Shown here: positions 863 through 25,975 of the stretch, in pieces | Layout of the letters: the number at the start of each line of letters is the position of its first letter | How positions within the stretch are numbered: position 1 is the stretch's first letter | Assembly: GCA_028286885.1 (NCBI GenBank) | Contig: JAQBQS010000016.1 | Span: 2,809-66,808 of the forward strand | Reading direction: 5' to 3' | Origin: Patescibacteria group bacterium | Lineage (GTDB): Bacteria > Patescibacteriota > Minisyncoccia > Phycocordibacterales > UBA1006 | Length of the DNA stretch: 64,000 nucleotides | Made by a program: the position numbers and the translations under genes | The notes under the pieces: model-generated | The model's database searches: none | What the model saw: the letters and a program-made list of their open reading frames with translations, nothing else | What the model was told of the DNA's origin: nothing

Positions 863-933
863 GCGGTGCTAGTTTAGTGGTAGAATAACTGCCTTCCAAG
901 CAGTGGATCAGGGTTCGATTCCCTGGCGCCGCA
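863..933 (+). tRNA. tRNA-Gly (anticodon TCC)
   Basis: Cloverleaf: acceptor GCGGTGC/GCGCCGC (one GU), anticodon stem CTGC/GCAG with loop CTTCCAA, T-arm CAGGG-TTCGATT-CCCTG, discriminator A; no encoded CCA. Confidence 0.85.
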
Positions 934-2599
934 CAGTAAGAGATTTCTCGTCTAGTTTTTCTTCATTTATCTTGAAAATGAAGGTCAGTTTTGGTGTTCG
1001 ACTAACTATTTCTTCGTATGTCGGAAACTCTTCGAAGAAGAGGCTATAAAGTGTGATCTGTTCTCGCTTATTCTCAATGTTTTCAAGTATTTTTGTAGGG
1101 TGTTCCATTAAATCTTTTGTATTTTTTATAAATTCGTGAATTTGGTCTTCGTTGATATCGAGCTTGTTTCTTTCGTTTTGTGCCCGACTCAGTTCAATAT
1201 GGATACTCTCATACTCCTTTTCGAGGTCGGCTTTTACGATTGGAGAATTTGCAGCTTCAATTGCTCTAAGTTTCAACTGTTTTTGTTCTTTTATTTCGAG
1301 AATGCGCTTGCTTATAAAGTTTGATTTGTCAGCAACAGTACCTTCTTCTCGGCGATATTTATAAACTAAAGCCCTCTCAATTATCGAGATAAATTCATCA
1401 GTAAACTTAATAGTTGCAAGGAAATTATTGAAAGTATCCTCGGCTTCCTTTCGAGGAAAGGCATATCTTTCGTGTTTTCTAGAACAATGATACGCAGGAT
1501 ATTTGTTTCCTAATTTTCCTGTCGAAAAACTTCCCAAAAGTGGTTTGCCACAGAGCGGGCATTTTAAGATATTTTTAAAAGGGAAGTCGGGTCGGAAATC
1601 ATGTCTTTTGTCCAAGAATTTTTCAAGCTTTTGGTCATAAAGAATTTCAAACCTATTTTCTCCAAGAGAATTTATGTAGACCTTGCCACGATTGGCTTTA
1701 TTAAAAATATCCATTGAAACAATCCCATTCCATTTTCCTTTAATAGGAAGGTAGTTTGTCCATTTTTCACAAACTATTCCGCAGTAAATTGGTCTTGTTA
1801 TTATTCTTTGGAGAGTTTTAACTGTAAGTCCGAGCGATTCCGTCTTTCCTGTAATTTTTGTTTTTGAATTATTCCATTTCTTGCGAACTTTTGATTTAAA
1901 TCCCATTGCGTTTATCTTCGAAACAATTTCCTCATCAGAGTAAATACCCTCCGCACGAAGTCTAAACATTTCAGAATAGTATTTACTTCTCTCGGGATCA
2001 GGTTCAAGAATGTATCGTTTCTTCATATCAACGTCCACCTTTTTTGAAACATATCCGTCGTTGGCTGGTCCCATATGATAACCGTCCCTCACCAAAAGAA
2101 TTTGTGCCTCGATAAGCTGTCGAAGGATTCTCTTTCGATCCATTTCCGATCGTTTGACTTCCATTAGCTCGCTCGCCTCGCTTGGGCTTTCTGTAGACCA
2201 CTCATACTTTAAATTATATTTATCAAAGTGGTTTTTTTCTGCCTGAATGATACCAGTAACATCTCGTAATTCAGTTCCGTGTTTTAGTAGTTCCGATTTG
2301 ATCTCGTAATAATTGTCTACTTTTCCGCGTGTCATTCGACTGATTATGCGAATAATAAGGAACTTAACTTTCCCGGGATTGTCCTTTAAAATTTGGATTA
2401 TTTCGTTGTAAACAGGGCGTGATTTTGTTTTTCCGCTAAAAGGCTCCTCGAATACTTTGTTATCAGGGAATAGTGTATATCCGTTGCGGTCGCAGTAATT
2501 TCTTATATCTTGCTCCTGTCCTGCAAGACTATCGCCGCCGACTGCTTGTTTTGCAGTGCTTACGCGCGCATATCCAATTACATAAATTGGCTCATTCAT
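908..2599 (-). CDS. large serine recombinase (integrase); its 3' end overlaps the tRNA-Gly 3' end by 26 nt
   Basis: N-terminal resolvase catalytic motif YARVSTAKQ, recombinase domain, Cys-rich zinc-ribbon CPLCGKPL...YHCSRKH, C-terminal coiled-coil; 563 aa. Confidence 0.85.
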   Translation of the reverse strand: MNEPIYVIGYARVSTAKQAVGGDSLAGQEQDIRNYCDRNGYTLFPDNKVFEEPFSGKTKSRPVYNEIIQILKDNPGKVKFLIIRIISRMTRGKVDNYYEIKSELLKHGTELRDVTGIIQAEKNHFDKYNLKYEWSTESPSEASELMEVKRSEMDRKRILRQLIEAQILLVRDGYHMGPANDGYVSKKVDVDMKKRYILEPDPERSKYYSEMFRLRAEGIYSDEEIVSKINAMGFKSKVRKKWNNSKTKITGKTESLGLTVKTLQRIITRPIYCGIVCEKWTNYLPIKGKWNGIVSMDIFNKANRGKVYINSLGENRFEILYDQKLEKFLDKRHDFRPDFPFKNILKCPLCGKPLLGSFSTGKLGNKYPAYHCSRKHERYAFPRKEAEDTFNNFLATIKFTDEFISIIERALVYKYRREEGTVADKSNFISKRILEIKEQKQLKLRAIEAANSPIVKADLEKEYESIHIELSRAQNERNKLDINEDQIHEFIKNTKDLMEHPTKILENIENKREQITLYSLFFEEFPTYEEIVSRTPKLTFIFKINEEKLDEKSLTVRRQGIEP

Positions 2600-2808
2600 A
2601 AATCTATTTTAACATTATCCGTTTGTTTTGACTCATTTTCAAACCAAATTTTATAAGCTGTATTAACAAATATCATAGAAGCTTCATAAATTTTTTGTAC
2701 CTGAAAATCTGAGAACTTTTTCAGCTCCTCATGAGTAAGTACATTCTTTTTGAATTCTTCCAAGCTCATTATTTTGAGATTAAAATCGAGATAACAAAAA
2801 CGCCCCAA
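2596..2808 (-). CDS. small hypothetical protein, translationally coupled upstream of the recombinase (possible directionality factor)
   Basis: 70-aa ORF overlapping the recombinase start by 4 nt (ATGA); no recognizable motif. Confidence 0.3.
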   Translation of the reverse strand: MGRFCYLDFNLKIMSLEEFKKNVLTHEELKKFSDFQVQKIYEASMIFVNTAYKIWFENESKQTDNVKIDL

Positions 2809-3210
2809 TATAAGGGCTTTTTGTAAGCAAATTACCTGTTCGTAGAAATACGTAGAATTGGTAATTAACTAGGCAAAAAGCCTAACGAATTACCAACTCG
2901 ACGCATTTATTTATCCTGAAGTAAACATATCGTAACTTGTAGATTCATCGGAGATCTCTAGTGTTTTTTAGCCACTTTCTAACTTTTTCTAACCTCCAAA
3001 TGAAACAGGATGAGACATAATCAGGGTAAAATGCAATGTTGATCCGTTTTCTCGATATGATCGCTCCCTGCAATAGTTTTTCGAGAAAACTTTATTAAAT
3101 TATCTGGGGCAATGAACTGACTGACTTTATTATAGCAGTTGTTTTGAAAAAATCACCTCCTAGACATTACAGGATTAAAATAGTACGCTTTCTAACATAA
3201 CCTAATAAAA

Positions 3211-3358
3211 GTAGCCTAAACTCGTCTAACGGCGAGCATGGTGAAAGCAATGTCCAGTCAGACATAAAAAACCCATCATATGGGGTTTGTCTGACTGGCT
3301 GCATTTGGAAACGAATGCAGAGGGCGAAAGTCCTCAACCTATGTGGTGGGCTTTTTGT
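3211..3358 (+). ncRNA. conserved structured RNA motif, copy A (unidentified family)
   Basis: ~88% identical to 23134-23279. Stems CCAGTCAGACA/TGTCTGACTGG and TGCATT/AATGCA are replaced in copy B by CCAGTAAAGAT/ATCTTTACTGG and GTATC/GATAC (compensatory). Invariant hairpin CCCATCATATGGG, GGGC-GAAA-G(t/c)(c/t)C tetraloop hairpin, ends GGGCTTTTTG. Confidence 0.6.
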
Positions 3359-3389
3359 ATCTCATTTATTAGAACAGTCAGACTAATTT

Positions 3390-3728
3390 ATGAAATTTAA
3401 TCCTTTTAAGATAATTTTAAGTGTCGCCAGTCTTATTTTAGCTGGAAGTGTGTTTTATTACTTTATTATTTATTTGCCCTCTGAAAAGCAGATGGAACAT
3501 TTTCGAACCGAACAGGGGAATAGTTTGAGAAACTCGGCATTAAATCATTGTTTTCAGGATGTTCAGTCTGAATATCAAGATGATATGACGAAAAACTGTT
3601 TCCAAGAAGGTTTTGATGATTGCTCCCTGAATCCACATGTTGCAGGAAATATGATAGTTGTTTTGAATAATAAATTACAAGCAGATAAGCAAATTTGTAT
3701 TAAAGAGTACGGGACATGGAATCCATAA
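3390..3728 (+). CDS. small membrane-anchored Cys-containing hypothetical protein
   Basis: N-terminal TM helix ILSVASLILAGSVFYYFIIYL; 112 aa; lies immediately downstream of RNA motif copy A. Confidence 0.4.
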   Translation: MKFNPFKIILSVASLILAGSVFYYFIIYLPSEKQMEHFRTEQGNSLRNSALNHCFQDVQSEYQDDMTKNCFQEGFDDCSLNPHVAGNMIVVLNNKLQADKQICIKEYGTWNP

Positions 3729-3732
3729 TAAA

Positions 3733-3778
3733 AACAGCTTAAAACCCCTAATTTAGGGGTTTTAAGCTGTTTTTATTT
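3733..3778. terminator. rho-independent terminator
   Basis: aaaaacAGCTTAAAACCCCTAAtttaGGGGTTTTAAGCTgttttt perfect hairpin with U-tract. Confidence 0.6.
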
Positions 3779-3871
3779 ACTATTTAGAGTGCCCGTATTG
3801 CCTAACTTTTTCTTACCTTGAAACCTTTTTATTTCGCACTTTTTCGTACCAACATTTTTAATTTAAAGTGC

Positions 3872-4165
3872 CTAACTGGCAACATTAAACTTGATATTTC
3901 TTGTTTTTTCCAAAATATCCAAAGTAGCTTTTACAGAAGAATTAGAAGTATTTTTTAAGATTAGCCTATCGCCGTATTTACTGACCAATGGGCTTAAAAA
4001 TTCATCTCCCCATGATGGAGCGAATGTTAAAATTCCAGAAAAATCCAAAATAAGCTCTTCTGAATCAGAAAAGTTTTTTAATTCAGGTTCAAATGCTGTA
4101 AAAGCTTCTCTTCCTCGATCCCGAAATACCGATGTGTTTCCAAATTTAACTAATTGAATTTCCAT
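3872..4165 (-). CDS. STAS-like (DUF4325-type) small protein
   Basis: 97 aa; ...FSGILTFAPSWGDEFLSPLVSKYG...; resembles STAS-like partners encoded next to GHKL ATPases (by recollection of family features). Confidence 0.4.
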   Translation of the reverse strand: MEIQLVKFGNTSVFRDRGREAFTAFEPELKNFSDSEELILDFSGILTFAPSWGDEFLSPLVSKYGDRLILKNTSNSSVKATLDILEKTRNIKFNVAS

Positions 4166-4183
4166 AATGTTTATTATACTAAG

Positions 4184-4915
4184 CTAATATTTAATATAAG
4201 CAACACAGCCGCGTAACCAACGAACGGCAGGCCTAATATCTAAATTTGAAGAGTCATGTTTAATTTCCAGTTCTGCGTTACCACTTTGAAATCTAAGTCC
4301 GATTAGATTATTTGTTACGACAGTCCTTACAAATTTTAATCCGTTCCCACGAGACTCCTGAGTCCTTCCAGAAACAACCTCGGTAAATGCTGTATTTATA
4401 GCACTACCATCATCTATCAGGTCTGGGAGGGCTTGCCTTAATGTTGTTAAGATCCCTAAGCCTCGGTCAGCGAGCACAACCTCTCTTTTGTCTGTGTCGT
4501 ATGCAAAAAATATGCCTGCTTCGTCTGGCCAGCGACCTAAGTTATGATCGAAAGAGTTTCCTCCAATTTCTCCAGAAACCGATACCACCAAAGAAAATAT
4601 ATCTTCGAGGAGAGGTGATTTCAGAAGCTCTTCTTGAAACTTGCCAAGCTTGGTCTGAAAAACTGCACTATTCTCAGCATATGCATATCTAGGGATGTGC
4701 GGTATTTCTTTTGAGTCAGCAGTTGCCCATTCAAAAGCTGTTTGAAAAAGATTGTTTGGAAAGAACTCCAGATCAATCTTTCTGTAAAATCTATCCCCGC
4801 CAGGTGATTTCCTAACGGCTCGCAATTTTCCACTCTCGTCCCAACGCCTTAGCGTTGTTATTGAGACATTTAAAATTTTTGCTGCCTCCCCTACTGGTAA
4901 TAGTTCATTCTCCAT
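4184..4915 (-). CDS. HTH (MerR/excisionase-type) fused to GHKL-family ATPase (RsbW/SpoIIAB-like kinase fold)
   Basis: N-term LPVGEAAKILNVSITTLRRWDESGKL (HTH_17-like); GHKL N-box GEIGGNSFDH, G1 box DRGLGI, G2 box SRGNGLKF. Confidence 0.5.
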   Translation of the reverse strand: MENELLPVGEAAKILNVSITTLRRWDESGKLRAVRKSPGGDRFYRKIDLEFFPNNLFQTAFEWATADSKEIPHIPRYAYAENSAVFQTKLGKFQEELLKSPLLEDIFSLVVSVSGEIGGNSFDHNLGRWPDEAGIFFAYDTDKREVVLADRGLGILTTLRQALPDLIDDGSAINTAFTEVVSGRTQESRGNGLKFVRTVVTNNLIGLRFQSGNAELEIKHDSSNLDIRPAVRWLRGCVAYIKY

Positions 4916-5078
4916 AATTTAAGGTTATATTTTGAATTATACACTAATTTAGGCAAAAACTTGTGTAATACCTACTCATAATATATGCTAAATCTACTCA
5001 TTGCAACAAACATTGATTTTATACCTTTAATCCCTATAAATTGCAATCTGATTAATAGCTTATAATCAAAACATATTT

Positions 5079-5366
5079 ATGGCAGTAAGAATTACTTGTA
5101 TTAACAAAGATAATGGAAATCATTTAAATCCTCATGCAGGGATAACGCACTTCGGATGGGTAAATGAACAAACCAGGGCTACTGGTAAAAGCACGAAAGC
5201 TGTTATGGTTGATTTTTTGACTAAACAAGGAGGGAAGGCATATGTAAAAGATGCTAGAGGGAATATCGCTTATGTTGGCGTTATTACGAATCATATTCCT
5301 CCATATCTTAGAACCTACGCGGATGGTAAGTGGTCGGATAATTTGCTCAGTTTGGGCGAATGTTAA
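5079..5366 (+). CDS. small conserved hypothetical protein (DUF3892-like)
   Basis: MAVRITCINKDNGNHLNPHAGITHFGWVNE...; 95 aa; family assignment by recollection, low certainty. Confidence 0.3.
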   Translation: MAVRITCINKDNGNHLNPHAGITHFGWVNEQTRATGKSTKAVMVDFLTKQGGKAYVKDARGNIAYVGVITNHIPPYLRTYADGKWSDNLLSLGEC

Positions 5367-5369
5367 TTT

Positions 5370-6104
5370 ATGAAGTTGGTTTTTATTGATGAGACAGATC
5401 GGCAGGCAAGTTCCACAGTCCACGCATTCTTTTCGATTTGTGGGTTGGTTATTGATGAGTCTGAAATTATGGCAACGACAAACGAACTTGAAGAAATTAA
5501 GAAAAAATACAATTTTTCGAATCTAAAGGAATCTAGAAAAAGCGGTCTTTCCGAACAGGAAAAAGTTATTATTTCTACAGAAGTATTTGATTGCCTCAAA
5601 AAACATAACGCATCAATTATTTCAATCGTCTTGGGAGATTTTTCCATGAGCTTTAACATGCCCAAAGATGACCTTTACATGGGAGCAATACAATTCTTGA
5701 TGGAGCGTTTCTGTCTTATTTTAATGAAAGTAAATAGTTGTGGTTTGGCAATATTTGATTGTACAGAAAAGAGATTTGAGAAAAAGCTTAGAGAAAAATT
5801 TTACGAATATATTCAGACTCAAACCGTTCATATGGCTTGGGAGTCAAAACCAAGAGGTCCCATGAGAGATTTCATTCAACCAACTTTATTTTTTGCAGAT
5901 GATGAGCAAAGCATTCTTATTCAAGCGGTTGATCTTATTGCTGTTTCTTTAAACAGTGCGATCGTTAATATTACGCAAAGCAACCCAAAAATCATGGTTG
6001 CAGATCTTCCTTCTGGTAATAAGTTTCTAAACATATACTGGCCACTTTTTGCTTCAAGTTCTTCAGGTAAAGTCGAGGGGTGGGGTGTAAAAGTTTGGGA
6101 TTAA
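5370..6104 (+). CDS. DUF3800-like protein (predicted RNase H-like fold)
   Basis: N-terminal MKLVFIDETD... matches the hydrophobic-DESG start typical of DUF3800; 4-nt intergenic gap to the preceding gene suggests an operon. Confidence 0.4.
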   Translation: MKLVFIDETDRQASSTVHAFFSICGLVIDESEIMATTNELEEIKKKYNFSNLKESRKSGLSEQEKVIISTEVFDCLKKHNASIISIVLGDFSMSFNMPKDDLYMGAIQFLMERFCLILMKVNSCGLAIFDCTEKRFEKKLREKFYEYIQTQTVHMAWESKPRGPMRDFIQPTLFFADDEQSILIQAVDLIAVSLNSAIVNITQSNPKIMVADLPSGNKFLNIYWPLFASSSSGKVEGWGVKVWD

Positions 6105-6297
6105 TCAAATGTTTTATGATGGTTCTACAACCATTAAGGTGTTAGTTTAATATTTACAAAACCATAATAAATTGAATCAATAAGGCTTTTGAGTCAATGA
6201 ATATTTTGTTCTCATTGCGGATAAGACTTCGTTCCATGTTAGAATCATATTCTGCAAGGTGTTCCATTCTAGGGACATGATGCGCACCACTTCGCAA

Positions 6298-6333
6298 AAA
6301 AGCCATTCGTCAAAACGAATGGCTTTTTTGCGA
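6298..6333. terminator. rho-independent terminator
   Basis: aaaaaaGCCATTCGTcaaaACGAATGGCttttttg. Confidence 0.6.
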
Positions 6334-6361
6334 AAAATATGAGTATGCTATAGTAACGAAT

Positions 6362-6934
6362 ATGGAACTTGAAACGCAACGATTAATACTTCGAAAAGGC
6401 AAAAGGGGGGACTGGAAAGACATTGTTGAAGGAGCTTCGGATCTGAATGTTTCAAAGAATATGACCACGGTGCCTCATCCCTATGGCAAGTCCGATGCGG
6501 AGTGGTTTATCAATGACTCGATCAAGAAGTGGAATCAAAAGAAAGGATACTCTTTTTTCATTGAATTGAAATCGGAAAAGAAAGTTATCGGTGTGATGAC
6601 TATCGGCGGGATTAGCGAAACCAACGGCACAGCGACAACGGGTTCTTGGGTTAACAAGAAATATTGGAAAAAAGGATATATCACAGAAGCAAAAATAGCG
6701 GTAAATGATTTTGCTTTCAATATGTTAAAACTTCGACGCCTCAACTCGACCGTTTTTACGGAAAATAAAGCATCAAATGCTACTCAGTCAAAAATGGGTT
6801 ACAAGATGGAAGGAATGAGCCGAAAAGCACAAAGATCCAAATCCACCGGCAAGATTCACGATATTAATATTTACGGACTTCTTAAGGAAGACTGGAAAAA
6901 GGCGAGAAAAAATCTTGTCCGAAAAAGTAAATAA
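6362..6934 (+). CDS. GNAT family N-acetyltransferase (RimJ/RimL-like)
   Basis: METQRLILRKGKRGDWKDIVEGASD... N-terminal pattern and length typical of ribosomal-protein-acetyltransferase-like GNATs. Confidence 0.55.
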   Translation: MELETQRLILRKGKRGDWKDIVEGASDLNVSKNMTTVPHPYGKSDAEWFINDSIKKWNQKKGYSFFIELKSEKKVIGVMTIGGISETNGTATTGSWVNKKYWKKGYITEAKIAVNDFAFNMLKLRRLNSTVFTENKASNATQSKMGYKMEGMSRKAQRSKSTGKIHDINIYGLLKEDWKKARKNLVRKSK

Positions 6935-9392: not shown

Positions 9393-10169
9393 TTATTGCG
9401 CCTGATTCCATGCGATATCAAACAGCATGCGCATGAACATGGCGATGGATCTGTTGGTAATAATGACTGAATGAAGCCCTTTGTCCCAAACAGTAAGCGC
9501 GACATGGTCCGTCCAAACGGACATTTGCAAGTTGGAATTGAAAATCGCCTTGGGGAGGGCGCGCACTTCGCGGAATTTGATGCGCGCTTCGAGGCGTTCG
9601 TCATCAATATCTGGAAATTCAGGCAAGAGAAGTTTTGTTTTGATTTTCCGTTTGATACGAAGCTCGCGATACTCCTTGAGCCTGTCGCGCGCAACCGTAA
9701 ACCGCTCGGGGTCTCCCGACATGCGCAGTACCTCGCCGCCTTTTTCCTGATCAAGGGATTTCATGAAAACCTTAACAAATCCGTCCTCTCCTTCCAAATG
9801 CTCGATGTCGATCTTTTCGGATTCGCCGCGCAATGCAAACAGGCTGCGCAGTTCCGGCATGACGAGTTCGAGCTCGGACACCTTTTTTCTCGTTTCGAGT
9901 TCCTCATGCTCGAGGAACTTCCGTATCTTTTCAGGATTTTCGACATAGAACACGCGGCGTTTGCCGGAAGCTGTTACGCCAAGAACGCCGCGTTCAACAA
10001 GGCTTTCAACAGCAAGGTGAATAGTCGAGCGGGGGAGTTTTACGCCGCCTGCAATCGCGGCAATGCTCGAGATTCCATTTTGGAACAAGAAAAATACTGC
10101 CTGAATTTGAGCCGAGTCCATGCCGATATTCTTGAGTGACGACTTCAATTGTTTCGGTATTTCGATCAT
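9393..10169 (-). CDS. TrmB-family transcriptional regulator
   Basis: N-terminal wHTH ...QIQAVFFLFQNGISSIAAIAGGVKLPRSTIHLAVESLVERGVL... followed by a TrmB-like C-terminal domain. Confidence 0.55.
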   Translation of the reverse strand: MIEIPKQLKSSLKNIGMDSAQIQAVFFLFQNGISSIAAIAGGVKLPRSTIHLAVESLVERGVLGVTASGKRRVFYVENPEKIRKFLEHEELETRKKVSELELVMPELRSLFALRGESEKIDIEHLEGEDGFVKVFMKSLDQEKGGEVLRMSGDPERFTVARDRLKEYRELRIKRKIKTKLLLPEFPDIDDERLEARIKFREVRALPKAIFNSNLQMSVWTDHVALTVWDKGLHSVIITNRSIAMFMRMLFDIAWNQAQ

Positions 10170-10427
10170 GAAACAAGATTATCACAAGTAGTTTGAAATG
10201 ACAAATTTTTATGACACTTTGTACAAAAAACTATAAAAACCAATGAAATTGCCATTTTTACAGAAATAGGTATCAAAATTACTTGTCAAAACTATTGACT
10301 TTTGTTTGCGCGCGTGATACAATGCTTGCAGGAAGATAAGAAATAATTCTTCGAGTTCTTTCAAATCCGCGAGATTGCATCCCATTCTCGAAAGGACCGT
10401 TCCCGATATCATAACGTTTGGTGGTAT

Positions 10428-10810
10428 TTGGAACAGTCCTTTCGAGGAAATATTAATAAGCGGCAGCGACTATCTGCCAGGGTCCCCGTGCTGAAGCGAT
10501 TTGACTTCAGGGCGGGGGTAATAACTTGGAGATCCCCATCCAGGAATCAGACACTTAACGTAAGTTCCTCTGACCAACCAATCTGGCGGGCAAAAAACCA
10601 TTCTGCGGGAACAGAATGCCAACTCTATAGACAAGGTTACAACCCCTACGTTAAATGAGTTAAAGTTTTTATGTACAGAGCCGCGTTTCTCGGCTCGTCC
10701 TTCCTTCATGTTCCTAACCGGGCGCAGGGACATGAGGGGCGTGATTAGGTCACGCAAGAAGGGAAGATCTTTGCATTGCATTTGCAAAGGAAGAAAATGC
10801 GCGTAATAGG
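10428..10810. other. unassigned GC-richer noncoding region with extensive hairpin potential
   Basis: No convincing ORF (10470-10859 minus ORF looks spurious); several stems e.g. GGGAGAGGT...ACCTCTCCC (10808-10866); RNase P, tmRNA and SRP consensus elements were looked for and not found. Confidence 0.3.
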
Positions 10811-10866
10811 GAGAGGTCTGGCAAAGGGGGCCTAGAGGGTCATCCTGAGGACCGGACACCTCTCCC

Positions 10867-10906
10867 TTTCTATCAGGATCTCGAAGAAATTCGAGGTTCT
10901 GTAGAA
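10867..10906 (+). promoter_or_regulatory. repeated intergenic motif copy 1 (TATCAGGATCTCGAA-loop-TTCGAGGTTCTGTAGAAA)
   Basis: Follows the terminator-like hairpin 10808-10866; internal hairpin CTCGAA-GAAA-TTCGAG; 25 nt upstream of gene 10931. Confidence 0.5.
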
Positions 10907-10930
10907 ATTATTCTTTCAAAAAATATAAAG

Positions 10931-11305
10931 ATGTGCGCATGTAAAAGTCACGAGAATAAGAATGTGAAAATTGAAAAATTTACAATTATTCATCATTCAA
11001 AAACTTTTATTATGCAAAACATGTTAGTTGTTACAGCCGCGGTGGGCAGCTTTTTTTACGAGGGACATGATGATCCGAAGACATTTTTCCTAAGCGTAAA
11101 ACCTGGTGATTCTTCGGAAGAGCTTGTTTCTACGGTAGTGGAAAAGTTGTATCGAGTTTTTCGCCCAGAGGATCTTTCCTTCGGGAATGGCTTCGTTGGG
11201 ATAATCCACGACCTCGATCCCCAGGGCGGCCTGATTCGAGAAATCGAACAGAAGTTTAAAGAGCGTTTGGGTAGGGACGAGATCACCGTTCAGGTGAATG
11301 GGTAA
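10931..11305 (+). CDS. hypothetical protein
   Basis: 124-aa ORF directly downstream of motif copy 1. Confidence 0.35.
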   Translation: MCACKSHENKNVKIEKFTIIHHSKTFIMQNMLVVTAAVGSFFYEGHDDPKTFFLSVKPGDSSEELVSTVVEKLYRVFRPEDLSFGNGFVGIIHDLDPQGGLIREIEQKFKERLGRDEITVQVNG

Positions 11306-11334
11306 TACCAAGTATTGGCGAGAGTTTCTCGCCA

Positions 11335-11376
11335 TTTTTATCAGAGTCTTGAATTTAATTCGAGGTTCTGCAGAAA
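11335..11376 (+). promoter_or_regulatory. repeated intergenic motif copy 2 (TATCAGAGTCTTGAA-loop-TTCGAGGTTCTGCAGAAA)
   Basis: Follows hairpin GGCGAGAGTTTCTCGCC + T-run; stem CTTGAAT/ATTCGAG. Confidence 0.5.
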
Positions 11377-11476
11377 GCACATTCAAACAAAATATAAATA
11401 TACGTGCTGTTGTATCCATGCAAAATTATCTATTCAAAGAGTTGGAATAGAAAAAAACAAAACAAAATTTTGCAAG

Positions 11477-11989
11477 ATGGAAAAAACAGTATCACGACGT
11501 TGTTCGCTTAGGTATTGCAATTCCTCGGTAGTGAGCTCACTTCAAGTGATCCACTACGGTGCCAGCAGGTTTGAGTTTTCAAAGTTTAATCCCATTGCGA
11601 ACCACTTCGGTACGTATGGAATTAAACCGAGAAGCGGCGGTCTTTGGACCTCGCCGGTTAACTCAAATCATTCCTGGAGAGGTTTCTGCGAAGGTGAAGA
11701 TTTCAATCTTCATACCTTGAGTTCGTCTTTTCGCCTCTCGTTTCATGGTTGCGCCAAAATCGCAATCATTGACTCGTACGGGGACTTGGAGAACCTTCCG
11801 ATGAGGAGTTTTCCAAAGTCGATGGCTGAAACCGATGTCGATTGGGAGCTTGTTGCTCGCAATGCAGACGCGGTTTGGCTTACGGCGAAAGGCGAGACGA
11901 GGACGAGGCTTTCGGCCCCGTACTTGTTGAACGGATGGGACTGCGAAACAGTTCTCATCATGAATCCGAATTGCTTCTACCTCGTGTAG
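11477..11989 (+). CDS. hypothetical protein (start moved downstream of motif copy 2)
   Basis: ORF 11315-11989; the first ATG after the motif is at 11477 (MEKTVSRR...); no recognized domain. Confidence 0.3.
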   Translation: MEKTVSRRCSLRYCNSSVVSSLQVIHYGASRFEFSKFNPIANHFGTYGIKPRSGGLWTSPVNSNHSWRGFCEGEDFNLHTLSSSFRLSFHGCAKIAIIDSYGDLENLPMRSFPKSMAETDVDWELVARNADAVWLTAKGETRTRLSAPYLLNGWDCETVLIMNPNCFYLV

Positions 11990-12005
11990 AGCAGTTTGTA
12001 TTCAT

Positions 12006-12026
12006 AGGACAAGGAAACTTGTCCTC
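12006..12026 (+). terminator. terminator hairpin preceding motif copy 3
   Basis: AGGACAAGgaaaCTTGTCCT followed by CTTTA. Confidence 0.45.
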
Positions 12027-12066
12027 TTTATCAGGATCTTGAACACGTTCGAGGTTCTGTAGGGAA
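12024..12066 (+). promoter_or_regulatory. repeated intergenic motif copy 3 (TATCAGGATCTTGAA-loop-TTCGAGGTTCTGTAGGGA)
   Basis: Same conserved flanks as copies 1 and 2; stem CTTGAAC/GTTCGAG. Confidence 0.5.
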
Positions 12067-12094
12067 TATTTGATCACCTAAAAATAAATAACGT

Positions 12095-15047: not shown

Positions 15048-15108
15048 AAGCCTTTGAAATCCCGGTTATGCCGGGATTTTTTATCGGGAAAATGCCGTAT
15101 TGGATACT

Positions 15109-15174
15109 TGACATATTATATATATTATGCTAATGTATAAGAGTATTCTTTTAATAACCGCATAAATCAAAAAA
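15109..15174 (+). promoter_or_regulatory. duplicated promoter/leader (copy 1) with TTGACA -35 and TAAT(G/A)T -10
   Basis: ttgacatattatatatattatgctaatgtataagagtattcttttaataaccgcataaa is about 85% identical to 15897-15964. Confidence 0.45.
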
Positions 15175-15810
15175 ATGAAAAAAGTAATGTTCATCGCTAC
15201 GGCGCTTATCGGCCTTTGTCTTGCATCATGCACCCAATCCCAGAAACAGGATCAAACGGCTGAAACCAAGCCCGCCTGCGACTGCAAAGAAAAGTCATGG
15301 ACACAAGACGGCATCGAATACTCGCAGGTGTGCCTCGAAAACTGCAAGTCGGAAGTCGACAAGGAGCAATTCGACACTCTTGTCAAAAACGGCGTGAGCG
15401 TATACATGCACCGCAAATGGGTCTACGGAGATACGGCTTGGGCTGCTTGGTACATTGACCAGGTGGAAGGCAAGAACGTAACCATCACGCCTCAATCCGA
15501 CCAGGATCTCAGGCGCGAACACATCAGGAATGCCCACAAGGATGGAGATCTGGTAGACGTTTCCTTTTGGGGAGATTCGCTTGCAGGCCCTAAGCACTGG
15601 AACGGAGGCTATTTCAAAATCCGCGTTTACAAGAATCGCTTCGAGATTCCGTGTGTGGACCATAACATGTATCCTGACCTGAGCGTCACGCAGATCGATG
15701 AGATGAATGCATTTCTGGCCAAGTACAGATCCCGCTTCACAGCCATGATGCAGGCCGCATCGGATCCGAAGCTGAAGGACTTCCAAGTCCTGTCGCCATT
15801 TACTCTTTAG
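15175..15810 (+). CDS. lipoprotein, hypothetical
   Basis: Lipobox LCLASC after a signal peptide; 211 aa. Confidence 0.45.
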   Translation: MKKVMFIATALIGLCLASCTQSQKQDQTAETKPACDCKEKSWTQDGIEYSQVCLENCKSEVDKEQFDTLVKNGVSVYMHRKWVYGDTAWAAWYIDQVEGKNVTITPQSDQDLRREHIRNAHKDGDLVDVSFWGDSLAGPKHWNGGYFKIRVYKNRFEIPCVDHNMYPDLSVTQIDEMNAFLAKYRSRFTAMMQAASDPKLKDFQVLSPFTL

Positions 15811-15896: not shown

Positions 15897-15964
15897 TTTG
15901 ACAATTAACATATATTATGCTAATATAAGAACATATTCTTTTAATAACCACATAAACAAACCAA
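15897..15964 (+). promoter_or_regulatory. duplicated promoter/leader (copy 2)
   Basis: ttgacaattaacatatattatgctaatataagaacatattcttttaataaccacataaa. Confidence 0.45.
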
Positions 15965-16321
15965 ATGAGAAAAGTATTTTTCGCAATCGCAATAATCTCG
16001 GCATTGTTTCTCTCAAGCTGCAATTCCAATGATACGCACAACATGATTCGAGTGATGAACTTAAAAGATCTCGCCGATAAGGAAAATCCCTTGGTATCGC
16101 TCCAGCTCAAATCCGATGCACGGCCCCACTATGATGGAGATACTGTCGTAGTCGGCCAAACGATGTCAGGATTCAGCCTTAACTGCTTCATCGAGACCAA
16201 GCCCGTTGTATTTCCGAAAGGAAAGATGGAAGTACAAGAAGACCAGCTGGTCAGCATGATAACGTATACGAAGATGGTTATCATGAGAGGCGGTGACAAA
16301 ATGCCTTCCGTAAATCTCTAG
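15965..16321 (+). CDS. lipoprotein, paralog of 14619-15047
   Basis: Lipobox FLSSC; shared YDGDTVV and YTKMVIMRGG motifs. Confidence 0.45.
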   Translation: MRKVFFAIAIISALFLSSCNSNDTHNMIRVMNLKDLADKENPLVSLQLKSDARPHYDGDTVVVGQTMSGFSLNCFIETKPVVFPKGKMEVQEDQLVSMITYTKMVIMRGGDKMPSVNL

Positions 16322-20965: not shown

Positions 20966-21040
20966 TCCCCTGTAGCTCAGCGGTAGAGCAATCGACTGTT
21001 AATCGATTGGTCGTAGGTTCGATCCCTACCGGGGGAGCCA
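20966..21040 (+). tRNA. tRNA-Asn (anticodon GTT), CCA encoded
   Basis: Acceptor TCCCCTG/CGGGGGA, D-arm GCTC-AGCGGTA-GAGC, anticodon stem ATCGA/TCGAT with loop CTGTTAA, T-arm GTAGG-TTCGATC-CCTAC, discriminator G, CCA. Confidence 0.85.
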
Positions 21041-21304
21041 GTTAGGGGTACTAGCAAGTTCTAGTACCAAGTTCCAAGGTTCTCGCATTGTAAACTCTAG
21101 GTTTTTTCCATCTACAAGCGGGTTCTGAATGAGATAATTCACAAAAGCTCTTTTTTCATGTGTATCAGAACTTTCAAAAAGTTCAGTTGCATCATGAGCA
21201 AGATTAAGTATTACGCCTACAGTGATTTTGTAAGTGTGATCTGCTTTTGTGTGCTCATCAAGTTCGATAGAAAGTCGCGCCTGTCGGTCTTTAAGCTGTT
21301 GCAA
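21026..21304 (-). pseudogene. C-terminal remnant of a large serine recombinase, overlapping the tRNA-Asn 3' end
   Basis: 92-aa ORF; ...DTHEKRAFVNYLIQNPLVDGKNLEFTMREP... parallels the C-terminal ...NKREQITLYSLFFEEFPTYEEIVSRTPKLTFIFKINE of the intact recombinase at 908-2599; no catalytic domain upstream; same 3' overlap geometry with a tRNA. Confidence 0.5.
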
Positions 21305-21389
21305 CTTTTTGTCATAGTCGTCAGGGGTAATTCGCCACTCCGATCATATTTCAGCCCGTACCGCTTAAAAGGCTCGTTATTGTGCTACA

Positions 21390-21953
21390 TTGATGAATAT
21401 GCAAGAAGATAAAAGGATCGCTACAATGGAAGCTCTGTATGAGAATTCAAAGAGCTTAATAACATCCGCCGACTCTCTTATAGAGTCAAAAATGCCCGTT
21501 GGGCATGCTTTTGCGCTACTTCAAACAGCTTGTGAGGAAATCGGAAGAATGTTGGCAATTTTACAAATCCTTCAGAGTGTTAAAGTTGAGCTTCCAAGGA
21601 ATAGGCATACTGTTAAGCACTCCCATTTTCTTAGATTTATGTCGATTCAGCCTGTAGGGCATCGACCTTACTTTGAGATCATTTCCGAGATTACTGGCTT
21701 TGAAATCAATCAAGAGAACTCAAAGGACGATGTTGTTCTTGATAAAATTCAGAAGTTTAGAGAGTCTTGCTTATATGTAAACGTTAATTTCGATAACAAT
21801 CATACGATTTCATCCCCAACTGAAGAGAGAATACAAGGTAAGGTTGAGCAGGTAAAGGAGCTAAAAGAAATTCTTGTAAATTATATGAATGGCATGCTTA
21901 AACCACTTATAGAAGCTCACAAAAACGGGAAGACGATATTCTCTAAATCTTAA
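21390..21953 (+). CDS. HEPN-like / AbiV-like protein
   Basis: 187 aa, predicted all-alpha; Rx4H motif (RHTVKH) within LPRNRHTVKH; size and composition resemble AbiV-type HEPN proteins (by recollection). Confidence 0.4.
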   Translation: MMNMQEDKRIATMEALYENSKSLITSADSLIESKMPVGHAFALLQTACEEIGRMLAILQILQSVKVELPRNRHTVKHSHFLRFMSIQPVGHRPYFEIISEITGFEINQENSKDDVVLDKIQKFRESCLYVNVNFDNNHTISSPTEERIQGKVEQVKELKEILVNYMNGMLKPLIEAHKNGKTIFSKS

Positions 21954-21959
21954 GGTCTT

Positions 21960-22925
21960 ATGGAAAATCTAAAATCTAAAAAACAAATACTTTTAACAGG
22001 GGCTGGCTTTTCAAAAAATTTCGGAGGCTTTTTAGCCAAGGAAATGTTCGATGAGATCTATAACAGCGACCATCTTAAAAAGTTTCCAACATTAAGAGAT
22101 AAGCTTCTTGCCACAGGTGATTTTGAGTTTTTTTATGCGGAAGCAATGCTCGATAAAAACCTAACTCCCGAAGAAAAAGGTGCTGTTAAAGCTGCAGTGC
22201 AAGAAGCTTACAATAACCTGGATAAAATCTTTCAGAGCTCTTTTATATCCAATGGTGATTTGCTAATGAGCTGGGGTGATTTTCTAAGTAAAAACTTTTC
22301 TGGTAATGGGTCGGCTGTAGGGTTATTTTTTACTCTCAATCAGGATTTGTTGCTGGAAAGAAGTTTTGGGAATGTTTGCCCTGGAGTCAAGTCATTTAGA
22401 ATGAACGGGCTTGGACAAGCAGATTCATTTTCTTCCTCTCATTCGGTAGTTCTACCACAAGACACTAAAAGGGCAGAGGCAGACATTTTAGTGGGTAACC
22501 TTTCCTATTTTAAGTTACATGGTTCCTATGGGTGGAAATCTTCTGACGGTACAGATCAGATGGTTGTAGGAAGTAATAAGTCAGAGCTGATTGAAAAGGA
22601 GCCGATCCTGAAGCTTTATTTCGATGTTTTTAAGAAGGCTATCGCCGAGGGAAACAAAAATATTTTAATAATAGGGTATGGGTTCAGGGACAAGCATATC
22701 AACGATGTCTTGATGGACGGGGTTGAAAACCATGGATTAAAAATAGTTTGTATAGGTAACTCATCAATAGCTGATGTTATTAAAAAAGCGGAAAATGAAT
22801 ACCCAGAATGCGTACCTTTACTAAGAAGGGTTGATAAGTACTTCCCTTACCCTTTAGAAAGAATCTTAAATAATAATGCAGGAGACACAAGCTTTCGAGA
22901 TAGGATCGAGGAAAATATTCGATAA
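21960..22925 (+). CDS. SIR2-like (defense-type sirtuin) NAD-binding domain protein
   Basis: N-terminal KQILLTGAGFSKNFGG (GAGxS NAD-binding loop) and FTLNQDLLLE (TTNYD-like motif of SIR2_2/ThsA-type domains); 321 aa. Confidence 0.55.
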   Translation: MENLKSKKQILLTGAGFSKNFGGFLAKEMFDEIYNSDHLKKFPTLRDKLLATGDFEFFYAEAMLDKNLTPEEKGAVKAAVQEAYNNLDKIFQSSFISNGDLLMSWGDFLSKNFSGNGSAVGLFFTLNQDLLLERSFGNVCPGVKSFRMNGLGQADSFSSSHSVVLPQDTKRAEADILVGNLSYFKLHGSYGWKSSDGTDQMVVGSNKSELIEKEPILKLYFDVFKKAIAEGNKNILIIGYGFRDKHINDVLMDGVENHGLKIVCIGNSSIADVIKKAENEYPECVPLLRRVDKYFPYPLERILNNNAGDTSFRDRIEENIR

Positions 22926-23026
22926 CCTTAGCAATTCTTAGCATTATTTAGAGAATGTTAGATTTTCATATAATCGCAGATCCATCTTAATACTCCTCCA
23001 ATTAAGGGTTCTGAACTTGCTTACGA

Positions 23027-23036
23027 GGGGGAGCCA
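23027..23036 (+). repeat. 10-bp direct repeat of the tRNA-Asn 3' end (GGGGGAGCCA), putative att-type boundary
   Basis: Exact match to 21031-21040; extended imperfect match taccgGGGGGAGCCAgtta vs tacgagGGGGGAGCCAagta. Confidence 0.4.
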
Positions 23037-23133
23037 AGTATTGACGATTTATCGAATATATTGTAATGAAAAATCACCATATTAATATGGTGATTTTTCA
23101 TTTATGTGCTATAAGATAAATACAACTAAATCA

Positions 23134-23279
23134 GTAGCCTAAACTCTTGAGTGATCGAGAGCATGGTGAAATAAACCCAGTAAAGATTAAAAAACCCATC
23201 ATATGGGGCTATCTTTACTGGTCGTATCTGGAAACGGATACGGAGGGCGAAAGCTCTCACCTATGTGGTGGGCTTTTTG
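23134..23279 (+). ncRNA. conserved structured RNA motif, copy B
   Basis: See copy A (3211-3358); compensatory stem substitutions; ends GGGCTTTTTG. Confidence 0.6.
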
Positions 23280-23423
23280 CTTGAATTATTAGTTTTATAT
23301 TTCGACTATATCTTCTAAGAGAAATTATTTTTTGAGCTAAGCCTATAACTTCTCTTTAGAAATAATTTAACTCGCTTTGATAAGGTAATTTACCTATAAA
23401 AAGCCTTCAGTAAATGCATTTTC

Positions 23424-24425: not shown

Positions 24426-24428
24426 ATT

Positions 24429-25757: not shown

Positions 25758-25758
25758 T

Positions 25759-25890
25759 ATGTTTGCGTTCATACTCTTTGCTATTTTCTGTTATGGTATC
25801 TACGAGCTTTTCCGTCATGGAAAAATTGGAATTGCGATATTTCTTATTCTCGCATTCCTAGTTTGGGCGTTCTTCAGCTTTTTGTAAAAA
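25759..25890 (+). CDS. small hydrophobic peptide (43 aa), below the ORF-track cutoff
   Basis: ATG at 25759 one nt after the upstream stop; MFAFILFAIFCYGIYELFRHGKIGIAIFLILAFLVWAFFSFL = two TM-like segments; followed by a terminator hairpin at about 25896-25925. Confidence 0.3.
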
Positions 25891-25975
25891 TACATAAATG
25901 CTTGCAAGTGCAGGCATTTGTTTTGAAACTCAGGTGGTTTATCAAAAATTTAACTCTATATGATAAAGTATTAAT

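What the first reader, a model, noticed from the sequence alone, without database searches (positions are those of the whole stretch)
863..6340. tRNA-Gly-associated integrative island: serine recombinase plus AT-rich cargo of uncharacterised modules
An intact large serine recombinase (YARVSTAKQ catalytic Ser, zinc ribbon) overlaps the 3' end of tRNA-Gly(TCC) by 26 nt. It is followed by visibly AT-richer DNA (about 2.6-6.1 kb) encoding RNA motif copy A, a small TM protein, a STAS-like/HTH-GHKL ATPase pair, and a DUF3892-like/DUF3800-like operon. The composition shift and tRNA adjacency argue for an integrated mobile element carrying accessory, possibly defense or regulatory, cargo. The distal boundary was not located.
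Basis: partly seen in the sequence, partly recalled or inferred. Interest (0 to 1): 0.65.

Follow-up and report, generated by a model that had tools for sequence, protein, structure and literature searches.

The report
Serine-recombinase island at tRNA-Gly end
A 5.35-kb mobile element sits at the last bases of a tRNA-Gly gene in a Patescibacteria genome; its large serine recombinase gene spans the element's own attachment site, so insertion swaps the enzyme's tail, and the element carries the orphan LOOT RNA.

Summary
The element is window 935-6287 (GC 0.358; host 5.35-kb windows never fall below 0.436).

- **attL** is the core CGCAC at 930-934, covering the last acceptor bases, the discriminator and C74 of tRNA-Gly.
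- **attR** is the same core at 6283-6287. It is followed by the displaced CCA, the trailer and a host terminator.
- **Empty site:** a relative (L082) has DoxX, tRNA-Gly, then PrmC 15 nt later.

Joining the two ends extends the recombinase from 563 to 591 aa. The added tail (…EWNTLQNMILTWNEV…) is homologous to the tail of family members that are not next to a tRNA. This pattern runs through the family:

- 54 of 69 related loci end inside an antisense tRNA in one fixed register.
- 31 related loci, plus the window, carry the detached tail 3-10 kb away.

The recurring parts are the recombinase, a small upstream ORF in at least 24 of 32 bounded elements, and LOOT RNA (Rfam RF03000) in 18 of 32. The rest of the cargo varies.

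A second, decayed island at tRNA-Asn (21.0 to about 25.9 kb) has a recombinase remnant from another family, AbiV, SIR2 and a second LOOT copy.

Excision, the effect of the tail swap, and what LOOT does are all untested.

The parts
863..934 (+). tRNA-Gly(tcc). It is the target gene and the B arm of attL, and it stays intact through the discriminator base.
   Evidence: ARAGORN; Rfam tRNA 67.7 bits; orthologous tRNA in L081 and L082.
930..934 (.). attL core CGCAC: acceptor positions 70-72, discriminator A73 and C74. It contains the crossover.
   Evidence: Shared with 6283-6287. Sequence diverges immediately after GCAC in the window/L086 and window/L085 comparisons.
908..2599 (-). Large serine recombinase in its integrated form, 563 aa. 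The last 7 codons (RRQGIEP) and the stop codon are read from the antisense strand of the tRNA.
   Evidence: Pfam; 88 homologues; conserved C-terminal register.
2596..2808 (-). Small conserved ORF with a core of about 57 aa, probably starting at 2769 (MSLEEFKK...). Its stop overlaps the recombinase start (ATGA). It is a candidate accessory or directionality factor.
   Evidence: Homologous ORF directly upstream of the recombinase in at least 24 of 32 bounded elements. No Pfam or PADLOC hit.
3213..3335 (+). LOOT RNA copy A. A conserved 3' extension with a T-run reaches about 3356.
   Evidence: Rfam RF03000, 81.3 bits against a gathering score of 46.4. Covariation on 25 copies. The 3' extension is identical in copy B.
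3390..3728 (+). 112-aa protein with a hydrophobic N-terminal segment; cargo of unknown function.
   Evidence: ORF list; no family hit.
3727..3777 (.). Perfect 25-nt inverted repeat, a likely bidirectional terminator between convergent genes.
3872..4165 (-). DUF4325 (STAS-like) protein, 97 aa; cargo.
   Evidence: Pfam PF14213, 6.2e-7.
4184..4915 (-). 243-aa protein with an N-terminal MerR-type helix-turn-helix. Its C-terminal domain matches phrog_3364 (unknown function). A GHKL fold is not shown.
   Evidence: Pfam MerR 9.8e-11; phrog_3364 1.3e-10; no ATPase hit.
5079..5366 (+). DUF3892 protein, 95 aa; cargo.
   Evidence: Pfam PF13031, 1.7e-9; phrog_8224.
5370..6104 (+). DUF3800 protein, 244 aa; cargo, in an operon with DUF3892.
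   Evidence: Pfam PF12686, 3e-11.
6180..6284 (-). Detached 3' end of the recombinase gene (P arm of attR). In the circular form it would encode ...RIMSLEWNTLQNMILTWNEVLSAMRTKYSLTQKPY*.
   Evidence: In-frame reconstruction gives 591 aa. It is the only significant hit of the tail HMM in the 64-kb six-frame translation, E=1.1e-5. L085 has a homologous tail.
6283..6287 (.). attR core CGCAC.
6288..6334 (.). Host B' arm: the displaced CA of the encoded CCA (its first C is the last base of the core), the trailer CTTCGC, and a 20-bp terminator hairpin (6291-6334).
   Evidence: 13-nt exact match CGCACCACTTCGC to the tRNA-Gly end in L082. Hairpin I5.

Best explanation
Window 935-6287 is a small integrative element that carries no replication, conjugation or capsid genes. 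It is moved by a large serine recombinase.

**How integration works.** The chromosomal site is the extreme 3' end of tRNA-Gly(tcc). The crossover falls within CGCAC, at the discriminator/CCA boundary. The tRNA body is therefore kept, and only the genome-encoded CCA and the trailer are pushed 5.35 kb away.

**The recombinase gene spans attP.** The site lies in the codons for a flexible linker near the protein's C-terminus.
- The free circle would encode a 591-aa enzyme ending in a conserved amphipathic helix (EWNTLxxxILxWxxV).
- The integrated copy encodes a 563-aa enzyme whose last seven residues are read from the antisense strand of the tRNA.

**What is shown.** The two junctions, the empty site, the in-frame detached tail, the same architecture in dozens of relatives, and the recurrent parts: the recombinase, a small upstream ORF in most elements, and LOOT RNA in about half.

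**What is inferred.** The tail exchange changes the enzyme's activity or directionality, by analogy with phage Mx8 IntP/IntX. The small ORF and LOOT RNA serve the element's own life cycle rather than its cargo. The element can still excise.
For: **This element**
- Empty site: in L082, tRNA-Gly ends ...GCGCCGCACCACTTCGC and the PrmC ATG follows 15 nt later. In the window, homology to L081 and L082 resumes only at the PrmC ATG at 6934.
- Junctions: CGCAC occurs at both ends. The 13-mer CGCACCACTTCGC is unique in the window, at 6283-6295.
- Independent copy: L085/L086 carry a 69%-identical recombinase at the same tRNA-Gly/DoxX locus. Their P and P' arms are conserved, the sequence after GCAC is unrelated, and the cargo is different.
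- Tail: the reconstruction is in frame. An HMM built from tails of other family members hits only 6347-6180 on the minus strand, E=1.1e-5.
- Composition: GC is 4.4 sd below host windows.

**The family**
- In 54 of 69 loci an antisense tRNA has its 3' end 22-25 nt before the position aligned to residue 563. The same register is implied in 8 loci where tblastn stopped earlier, since their ORF stops fall inside the tRNA. One locus (L052) departs: its ORF stop overlaps the tRNA by only 4 nt.
- 31 related loci, plus the window, have a detached tail (E up to 0.02) 3-10 kb upstream of the recombinase start.
- The shared core is at the tRNA terminus and 21-24 nt before the W codon.
- Conserved tail residues use many synonymous codons, for example L8 with 6 codons and V13 with 4.
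- An AlphaFold model of a full-length relative places the junction in a low-confidence linker (552-570), followed by a helix at 571-589.
- LOOT RNA lies inside the element in 17 of 18 related loci with defined ends, and in the three closest relatives.
Against: - No read or contig with the attP or attB junction of this element was found: two exact metagenome scans returned nothing. Current mobility is therefore unproven.
- The empty-site relatives are only 65-67% identical in PrmC, so they are different species.
- Beyond the core, only 8 nt of the B' arm are shared with L082.
- GNAT (6362-6934) also lies in the variable slot between the tRNA and PrmC. Its history is unclear.
- The P and P' arms show no clear dyad symmetry.
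- The tail helix has low model confidence (pLDDT about 59).
- Nothing here tests any functional effect of the tail swap, of the small ORF or of LOOT RNA.
Confidence: 0.85

Rival explanations
1. The element is a fixed, no longer mobile remnant. It integrated once by the mechanism described and is now inherited vertically as ordinary accessory DNA.
For: No attP or attB junction was found in metagenome scans. The only other contig carrying these genes has the same arrangement. The neighbouring tRNA-Asn island shows that such elements do decay in this genome.
Against: The recombinase is full length with all invariant residues. The detached tail is still an open, in-frame, conserved reading frame. 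Composition has not drifted toward the host value. Ten related contigs break within about 50 nt of the end of the recombinase match, that is inside or at the tRNA, which fits presence/absence variation in populations.
Confidence: 0.25
2. The element is a phage satellite, comparable to phage-inducible chromosomal islands. It would excise and be packaged by a helper phage, with LOOT RNA or the small ORF acting in that hijacking.
For: It has no replication, conjugation or capsid genes of its own. Nine related elements carry a protein matching the small terminase subunit (phrog_4102, 2.2e-12). Sizes are small, 3-10 kb.
Against: The window element has no terminase-like gene. Only 2 relatives of the recombinase were found among 2.9 million viral contigs. 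No helper phage is known.
Confidence: 0.2
3. The overlap of the recombinase ORF with the tRNA is a coincidence of reading through to the next stop codon, and the tail-like segment at 6180-6284 is a chance match. On this view attP lies outside the gene.
For: Only 5 nt are shared between the two ends in the window. The tail segment is short.
Against: The register is fixed in 54 of 69 loci across 11 tRNA identities. A tail HMM that excluded the window gives one hit in 64 kb, exactly abutting the core and in frame. The same layout occurs in 31 related loci and in L085.
Confidence: 0.03

Closest known systems
Large serine integrases of phages and integrative elements (phiC31, Bxb1, A118, TP901-1, SCCmec Ccr, TnpX)
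   Same: Resolvase catalytic domain with a Ser nucleophile, recombinase domain, zinc ribbon and long coiled-coil helices. The shared core is very short rather than a long direct repeat. The gene sits at the edge of the element.
   Different: The target is the terminal nucleotides of tRNA genes. [quoted passage not shown] Here attP lies inside the recombinase coding sequence. There is also a family-specific C-terminal domain (MEHP...TPKL) plus a tail helix.
Myxophage Mx8 integrase IntP/IntX
   Same: attP lies within the 3' part of the integrase gene, so integration gives the gene a new 3' end and alters the enzyme's properties (PMC6070905). From memory, its target is also a tRNA gene end (tRNA-Asp).
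   Different: Mx8 Int is a tyrosine recombinase of a complete phage. Here the enzyme is a serine recombinase on a 3-10 kb element with no phage genes. A functional consequence is documented for Mx8 and only inferred here.
SSV1-type archaeal integrases (from memory)
   Same: The integrase gene contains attP and is partitioned on integration into a tRNA gene.
   Different: They are tyrosine recombinases from archaea, and the gene is split into two large, inactive parts. Here only the last 35 codons are exchanged.
phiRSM-type small serine recombinases
   Same: Serine-family enzymes acting as site-specific integrases (mentioned in PMC7192596). From memory, their site is the 3' end of a tRNA-Ser gene.
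   Different: They are small resolvase-like proteins lacking the recombinase and zinc-ribbon domains, they belong to filamentous phages, and their gene does not span attP.
LOOT RNA motif (Rfam RF03000; Weinberg et al. 2017, PMC5737381)
   Same: Both window copies match the whole model well above the gathering score. The structure shows strong covariation.
   Different: From memory, the motif was described only from metagenomes, with no assigned organism or function. Here it is placed in Patescibacteria, inside recombinase-bounded elements next to tRNA genes.

Membership tests
Large serine recombinase | N-terminal resolvase catalytic domain with a serine nucleophile | tested here: met
   PF00239, 5.9e-16. 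S14 lies in YARVSTAKQ. R12, S14, R88 and R91 are invariant across 37 homologues.
Large serine recombinase | Recombinase domain and zinc ribbon, with a coiled-coil insertion | tested here: met
   PF07508 4.4e-8 and PF13408 9e-6. C347, C350 and C372 are invariant. Helices at 406-480 appear in the model of homologue P0065.
Large serine recombinase | Recombination at a short central dinucleotide, so attL and attR share only a few bases | tested here: inconclusive
   The shared core is 5 nt in the window and 4-9 nt in relatives. This is compatible, but the cleaved dinucleotide cannot be mapped by computation.
Large serine recombinase | Catalyses attP x attB recombination | not testable with these tools
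   Requires an in vitro or in vivo assay.
Integrative genetic element (attL, attR and int; definition of PMC7192596) | Identifiable attL, attR and a contained integrase gene | tested here: met
   attL 930-934, attR 6283-6287, integrase gene 908-2599.
Integrative genetic element (attL, attR and int; definition of PMC7192596) | Uninterrupted attB in a related genome | tested here: met
   L082 has tRNA-Gly followed 15 nt later by PrmC. The relative is only 65% identical in PrmC.
LOOT RNA (RF03000) | Score above the Rfam gathering threshold over the full model | tested here: met
   81.3 and 92.6 bits against 46.4, model positions 1-121 of 121.
LOOT RNA (RF03000) | Conserved secondary structure supported by compensatory changes | tested here: met
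   25 copies: 96.4% of cells paired, 32 of 36 pairs changed on both sides, 0 of 500 shuffles as high, slid controls at 32-42%. The alignment was fitted to the model, which favours the structure.
Mx8-type integration-dependent integrase remodelling | attP inside the integrase coding sequence, so integration creates a new 3' end | tested here: met
   Reconstruction gives 563 aa integrated and 591 aa circular. The detached tail is conserved in 31 related loci plus the window.
Mx8-type integration-dependent integrase remodelling | Tyrosine recombinase | tested here: not met
   The enzyme is a serine recombinase. This is therefore an analogy, not membership.
Anti-phage defence island | Contains recognised defence genes | tested here: not met
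   For the tRNA-Gly island, PADLOC found only a helix-turn-helix match (mad1). The separate tRNA-Asn island does have AbiV (Pfam 6.8e-14) and SIR2 (PADLOC 1.6e-14).
Prophage or phage satellite | Capsid, terminase or packaging genes | tested here: not met
   None in the window element. A protein like the small terminase subunit occurs in 9 related elements only.

The most novel reading that the evidence does not exclude
Patescibacteria may host a widespread class of minimal integrative elements whose recombinase is reprogrammed by its own integration. Crossing over inside the gene's linker codons would remove a conserved C-terminal helix. The integrated enzyme would then differ from the free-form enzyme in activity or direction. 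The conserved small ORF and the structured LOOT RNA would act as cofactors of this cycle, for example in directionality, in maintenance of the circle, or in helper-dependent transfer. If so, this would be a self-contained directionality switch for a serine integrase and the first function for LOOT RNA.
Probability: 0.35. Interest if true: 0.85.

Novelty: new variant of a known kind. Interest (0 to 1): 0.7.

Why it matters
- **Unusual target for this enzyme class.** Large serine integrases are prized genome-engineering tools and were thought to avoid tRNA genes (PMC7192596). Here a whole clade uses the last bases of at least 12 tRNA identities in one fixed register. That gives a natural series for studying how target choice evolves in these enzymes.
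- **A possible built-in switch.** Placing attP inside the enzyme's own gene makes the integrated and free forms encode different proteins. This could control direction, and it is directly testable with two constructs.
- **A home for an orphan RNA.** LOOT RNA now has a host phylum and a genetic context.
- **A route for gene flow.** The elements show how small-genome Patescibacteria exchange accessory genes, including defence genes.

Tried and rejected
- **Long repeat of the tRNA 3' end.** A 23-mer with up to 3 mismatches matched only the tRNA itself. The best blastn-short hits in 17 kb were 9 nt, which is chance level. The real shared core is 5 nt. Six relatives do have 15-23 nt repeats of the tRNA end. 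In L002 and L075, the two compared, the repeat lies about 170 nt beyond the detached-tail codons, so it is not the junction there and remains unexplained.
- **LOOT as a guide RNA for the att sites.** The longest identity or complementarity runs to an element's own att regions (mean 7.58 nt) are no longer than runs to other elements' att regions (7.43). Rejected for simple contiguous pairing.
- **The 92-aa ORF at tRNA-Asn as a remnant of the same recombinase family.** Neither BLASTP nor hhalign found similarity. It is the C-terminus of a different recombinase family of about 500 aa.
- **Free forms in viral contigs.** Only 2 relatives were found, with no called tRNA (L083) and no LOOT.
- **Exact attP and attB junctions in metagenome contigs.** No matches.
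- **GHKL ATPase fold for the 243-aa protein.** Nothing by Pfam or PDB sequence search.
- **Defence annotation of the island-1 cargo.** None.
- **Dyad symmetry between the P and P' arms.** Inspected by eye; not convincing.
- **Tandem-array explanation for full-length recombinases with a tRNA 3-7 kb downstream.** No remnant of this family lies between them. Left open.


Full report
**What is at the coordinates**

The window comes from a Patescibacteria metagenome-assembled genome: the recombinase is 100% identical to an NCBI protein from a 'Patescibacteria group bacterium'. ARAGORN and Rfam both find tRNA-Gly(tcc) at 863-934.

A 563-aa ORF on the minus strand (908-2599) matches Pfam Resolvase, Recombinase and Zn_ribbon_recom. 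It carries the catalytic serine in YARVSTAKQ. Its last seven codons and stop codon are read from the antisense strand of the tRNA's acceptor and T arm.

GC falls to 0.358 over 935-6287. Host 5.35-kb windows average 0.481 and never fall below 0.436.

- LOOT RNA (Rfam RF03000) at 3213-3335
- a protein with a hydrophobic N-terminus at 3390-3728
- DUF4325 (STAS-like) at 3872-4165
- a protein with a MerR helix-turn-helix at 4184-4915
- DUF3892 at 5079-5366 and DUF3800 at 5370-6104

The one label I could not confirm is 'GHKL ATPase' for the 243-aa protein.

**Boundaries**

Two relatives of the host, 65-67% identical in PrmC, keep the neighbourhood DoxX, tRNA-Gly(tcc), PrmC, HU.
- In L082 the tRNA ends ...GCGCCGCA-CCA-CTTCGCCTTTCGGTT, and the PrmC start codon follows 15 nt after the tRNA. 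This is an empty site.
- In L081 a SET-domain gene lies between the tRNA and PrmC.
- In the window, homology to both relatives resumes only at the PrmC ATG at 6934.

Window 6283-6295 reads CGCACCACTTCGC. This is an exact 13-nt match to the last three acceptor bases, the discriminator, the CCA and the trailer of the L082 tRNA. It is unique in the window. A 20-bp terminator hairpin (6291-6334) follows it directly.

The two junctions are:
- attL: ...GGCGC[CGCAC]AGTAAGAG...
- attR: ...ACATGATG[CGCAC]CACTTCGCAAAAAAGCC...

The element is therefore 935-6287, 5.35 kb. GNAT (6362-6934) lies outside it, though still in the variable slot between the tRNA and PrmC. It is not the orthologue of the GNAT in L081.

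**The recombinase gene crosses attP**

Joining the two ends as in a circle continues the recombinase reading frame across the core into the minus strand of 6284-6180. The result is a 591-aa protein ending ...SLTVRIMSLEWNTLQNMILTWNEVLSAMRTKYSLTQKPY.

Family members that do not abut a tRNA end in the same motif, for example FSWNTIVETIRQW, LKWNTIESWIMKW and NWNTLQEEIARWQ. An HMM built from ten such tails, with the window excluded, finds one significant hit in the six-frame translation of all 64 kb. That hit is this exact segment (E=1.1e-5; the next best hit is 0.06).

**The pattern holds across the family**

The C-termini of most of the 37 aligned homologues read ...VTLRGIEP(RLQP), GVEPGFRA or RVELRLPA, which are antisense translations of tRNA acceptor and T arms.

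Among 79 loci from species-representative genomes:
- 69 extend at least 80 nt past the recombinase match.
- 54 of those 69 have an antisense tRNA next to the recombinase end. In 45 its 3' end lies 22-25 nt before the position aligned to residue 563. In 8 more the tblastn match simply stopped earlier, and the ORF stop codon falls inside the tRNA as in the others.
- One locus (L052) departs: its ORF stop overlaps the tRNA by only 4 nt.
- The targets are Glu (29), Lys (5), His, Tyr and Arg (4 each), Trp (3), Val (2), and Ile, Gln and Asp.
- Ten further contigs break within about 50 nt of the end of the recombinase match.

In 31 of these loci the tail HMM finds the detached tail on the recombinase strand, upstream of the recombinase start. 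Where a tRNA is called, the elements measure about 3.0-10.2 kb. The frame-consistent shared core lies at the tRNA terminus and 21-24 nt before the tryptophan codon. Examples are TGTGGGCGA, AGGGCGGCT, TTGGTGACC, TTGTCCGC, and GTGA in many tRNA-Glu elements.

Conserved tail residues are encoded by many synonymous codons. The separated tail is therefore kept as protein-coding sequence, which makes sense only if the circular form is expressed.

An AlphaFold model of a full-length relative (mean pLDDT 86) puts the junction in a disordered linker (552-570), ahead of a terminal helix at 571-589. That helix has low confidence.

**An independent copy at the same site**

The closest relative of the recombinase (69% identity) sits at the same tRNA-Gly/DoxX locus in another organism (L085, L086).
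- Its P arm is nearly identical: AAGGTGTTCCAgTCTAGGGACATGATGtGCAC.
- The host sequence after GCAC is unrelated.
- It has its own LOOT copy.
- Its cargo is different: a SEC-C protein and an HTH_31/Peptidase_M78 pair.

This narrows the crossover to the discriminator/C74 position.

**Recurrent parts and cargo**

I clustered the ORFs of 32 bounded elements, counting the window. Apart from the recombinase itself, which that ORF extraction did not capture, only two protein families are widespread.
- A small ORF of about 55-70 aa lies directly upstream of the recombinase in at least 24 of 32 elements. In the window it is at 2596-2808, and its stop overlaps the recombinase start. Its consensus is M(S/T)LEEFKK.LG....SDEEIE....LAD..FD.W.
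- A protein matching the small terminase subunit occurs in nine elements but not in the window.

No replication, conjugation or capsid genes were seen.

LOOT RNA findings:
- It was found in 23 of the 79 loci, always on the element side.
- It lies inside the boundaries in 17 of 18 related loci with defined ends.
- 18 of the 32 bounded elements carry it.
- All three closest relatives of the window element carry it.
- Its structure is well supported: 96.4% of cells paired and 32 of 36 pairs with changes on both sides.
- It shows no excess complementarity to its own element's att sites, so a simple guide role is unlikely.

The window's cargo has no hit to known defence systems.

**A second island**

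Directly 3' of tRNA-Asn (20966-21040) lies another AT-rich block, from about 21.04 to 25.9 kb, with GC 0.380. It contains:
- a 92-aa ORF at 21026-21304 (minus strand) that ends inside the tRNA
- HEPN_AbiV, SIR2 and LOOT copy B (23136-23258)
- two unknown membrane or coiled-coil proteins

The 92-aa ORF is the C-terminal remnant of a different recombinase family of about 500 aa with Resolvase, Recombinase and Zn_ribbon domains. LOOT is therefore linked to tRNA-end islands of two recombinase lineages. Its two window copies are 87% identical and share a further identical 21-nt 3' extension, while their flanks are unrelated.

**How it most likely works**

- *Shown:* the anatomy of the junctions, the empty site, the split gene, and the family-wide register.
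- *From established knowledge of large serine recombinases:* dimers bound to attP and attB cut at a central dinucleotide, rotate and religate. This needs no long homology, which fits the 5-nt core.
- *Inferred:* the B arm is the tRNA acceptor/T arm and the B' arm is the variable trailer. The tRNA stays functional if the host adds CCA. The tail exchange alters activity or directionality, as happens when phage Mx8's tyrosine integrase acquires a new 3' end on integration (PMC6070905). The small ORF and LOOT serve the element's cycle.

I give about 0.85 to the structural account and about 0.35-0.45 to a functional switch.

**Comparison with what is known**

The enzyme meets the domain definition of a large serine recombinase, and the element meets the attL/attR/int definition of an integrative genetic element. 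A survey of such elements states that this integrase group was not known to target tRNA genes. It found 14 of 297 cases and called for experimental proof (PMC7192596).

I found no paper linking serine recombinases, tRNA genes and Patescibacteria. I also found no description of LOOT beyond its discovery list. An attP inside the integrase gene is known for tyrosine enzymes: Mx8 and, from memory, SSV1. I do not know of a case for serine integrases.

I therefore file this as a new variant of a known kind.

**Limits**

- There is no evidence of current excision.
- The relatives used for the empty site are distant.
- The labels on some loci (Verrucomicrobiia, Saprospiraceae, Alphaproteobacteria and others) were taken as written. 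Several of these hold full-length recombinases with no adjacent tRNA, which may represent the ancestral, unsplit arrangement.

Noticed in passing
window 20966-25900: A second AT-rich island (GC 0.380) lies directly 3' of tRNA-Asn. It holds a 92-aa remnant of a different large serine recombinase family ending inside the tRNA (21026-21304, minus strand), HEPN_AbiV (21390-21953), SIR2 (21960-22925), LOOT RNA copy B (23136-23258), and unknown 333-aa and 442-aa proteins. Its distal end was not located; a hairpin at about 25900-25925 may be the host terminator.
   Followed up: partly
window 6362-6934; L081 7492-7923: The short slot between tRNA-Gly and PrmC varies independently of the recombinase element. 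It holds a GNAT gene in the window, a SET-domain gene in L081 and nothing in L082. The GNAT stop codon overlaps the PrmC start by one base.
   Followed up: partly
L030, L015, L048, L060 (recombinase at about 10001-11800 or equivalent; tRNA 3-7 kb downstream): L030 carries a full-length recombinase with its own WN-type tail and no adjacent tRNA, with an antisense tRNA 3.5 kb further on and no remnant of this family in between. L015, L048 and L060 show the same spacing, but their tails do not carry the WNT motif. Tandem arrays with another element type are possible.
   Followed up: partly
L002 4771-4785, L013 2624-2642, L018 2472-2487, L031 912-928, L066 61-83, L075 5683-5700 and 5471-5489: In six relatives a 15-23 nt copy of the tRNA 3' end occurs on the element side. 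In L002 and L075 it lies about 170 nt beyond the detached-tail codons (the other four were not compared with the junction), so there it is not the junction itself. These copies could be traces of earlier integrations.
   Followed up: no
L003 2974-3094: A LOOT copy lies about 2.8 kb outside the mapped distal end of the L003 element. This hints at a neighbouring decayed element.
   Followed up: no
window 10848-12090: Three copies of a 45-65 nt direct repeat (AGGAC...TATCAGGATCT.GAA.A..TTCGAGGTTCTGTAG...) occur in intergenic DNA at spacings of 469, 689 and 1158 nt.
   Followed up: no
window 15108-15192 and 15898-15982: An 85-nt direct repeat (79% identity) starts with a promoter-like TTGACA...TATTATGCTAAT and ends at an ATG. 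It looks like duplicated upstream regions of paralogous small genes.
   Followed up: no
L040 3777-4268 and eight other elements: A protein of about 131 aa matching the small terminase subunit (phrog_4102, 2.2e-12) sits next to the distal end of nine related elements. This hints at phage-satellite behaviour in part of the family.
   Followed up: partly
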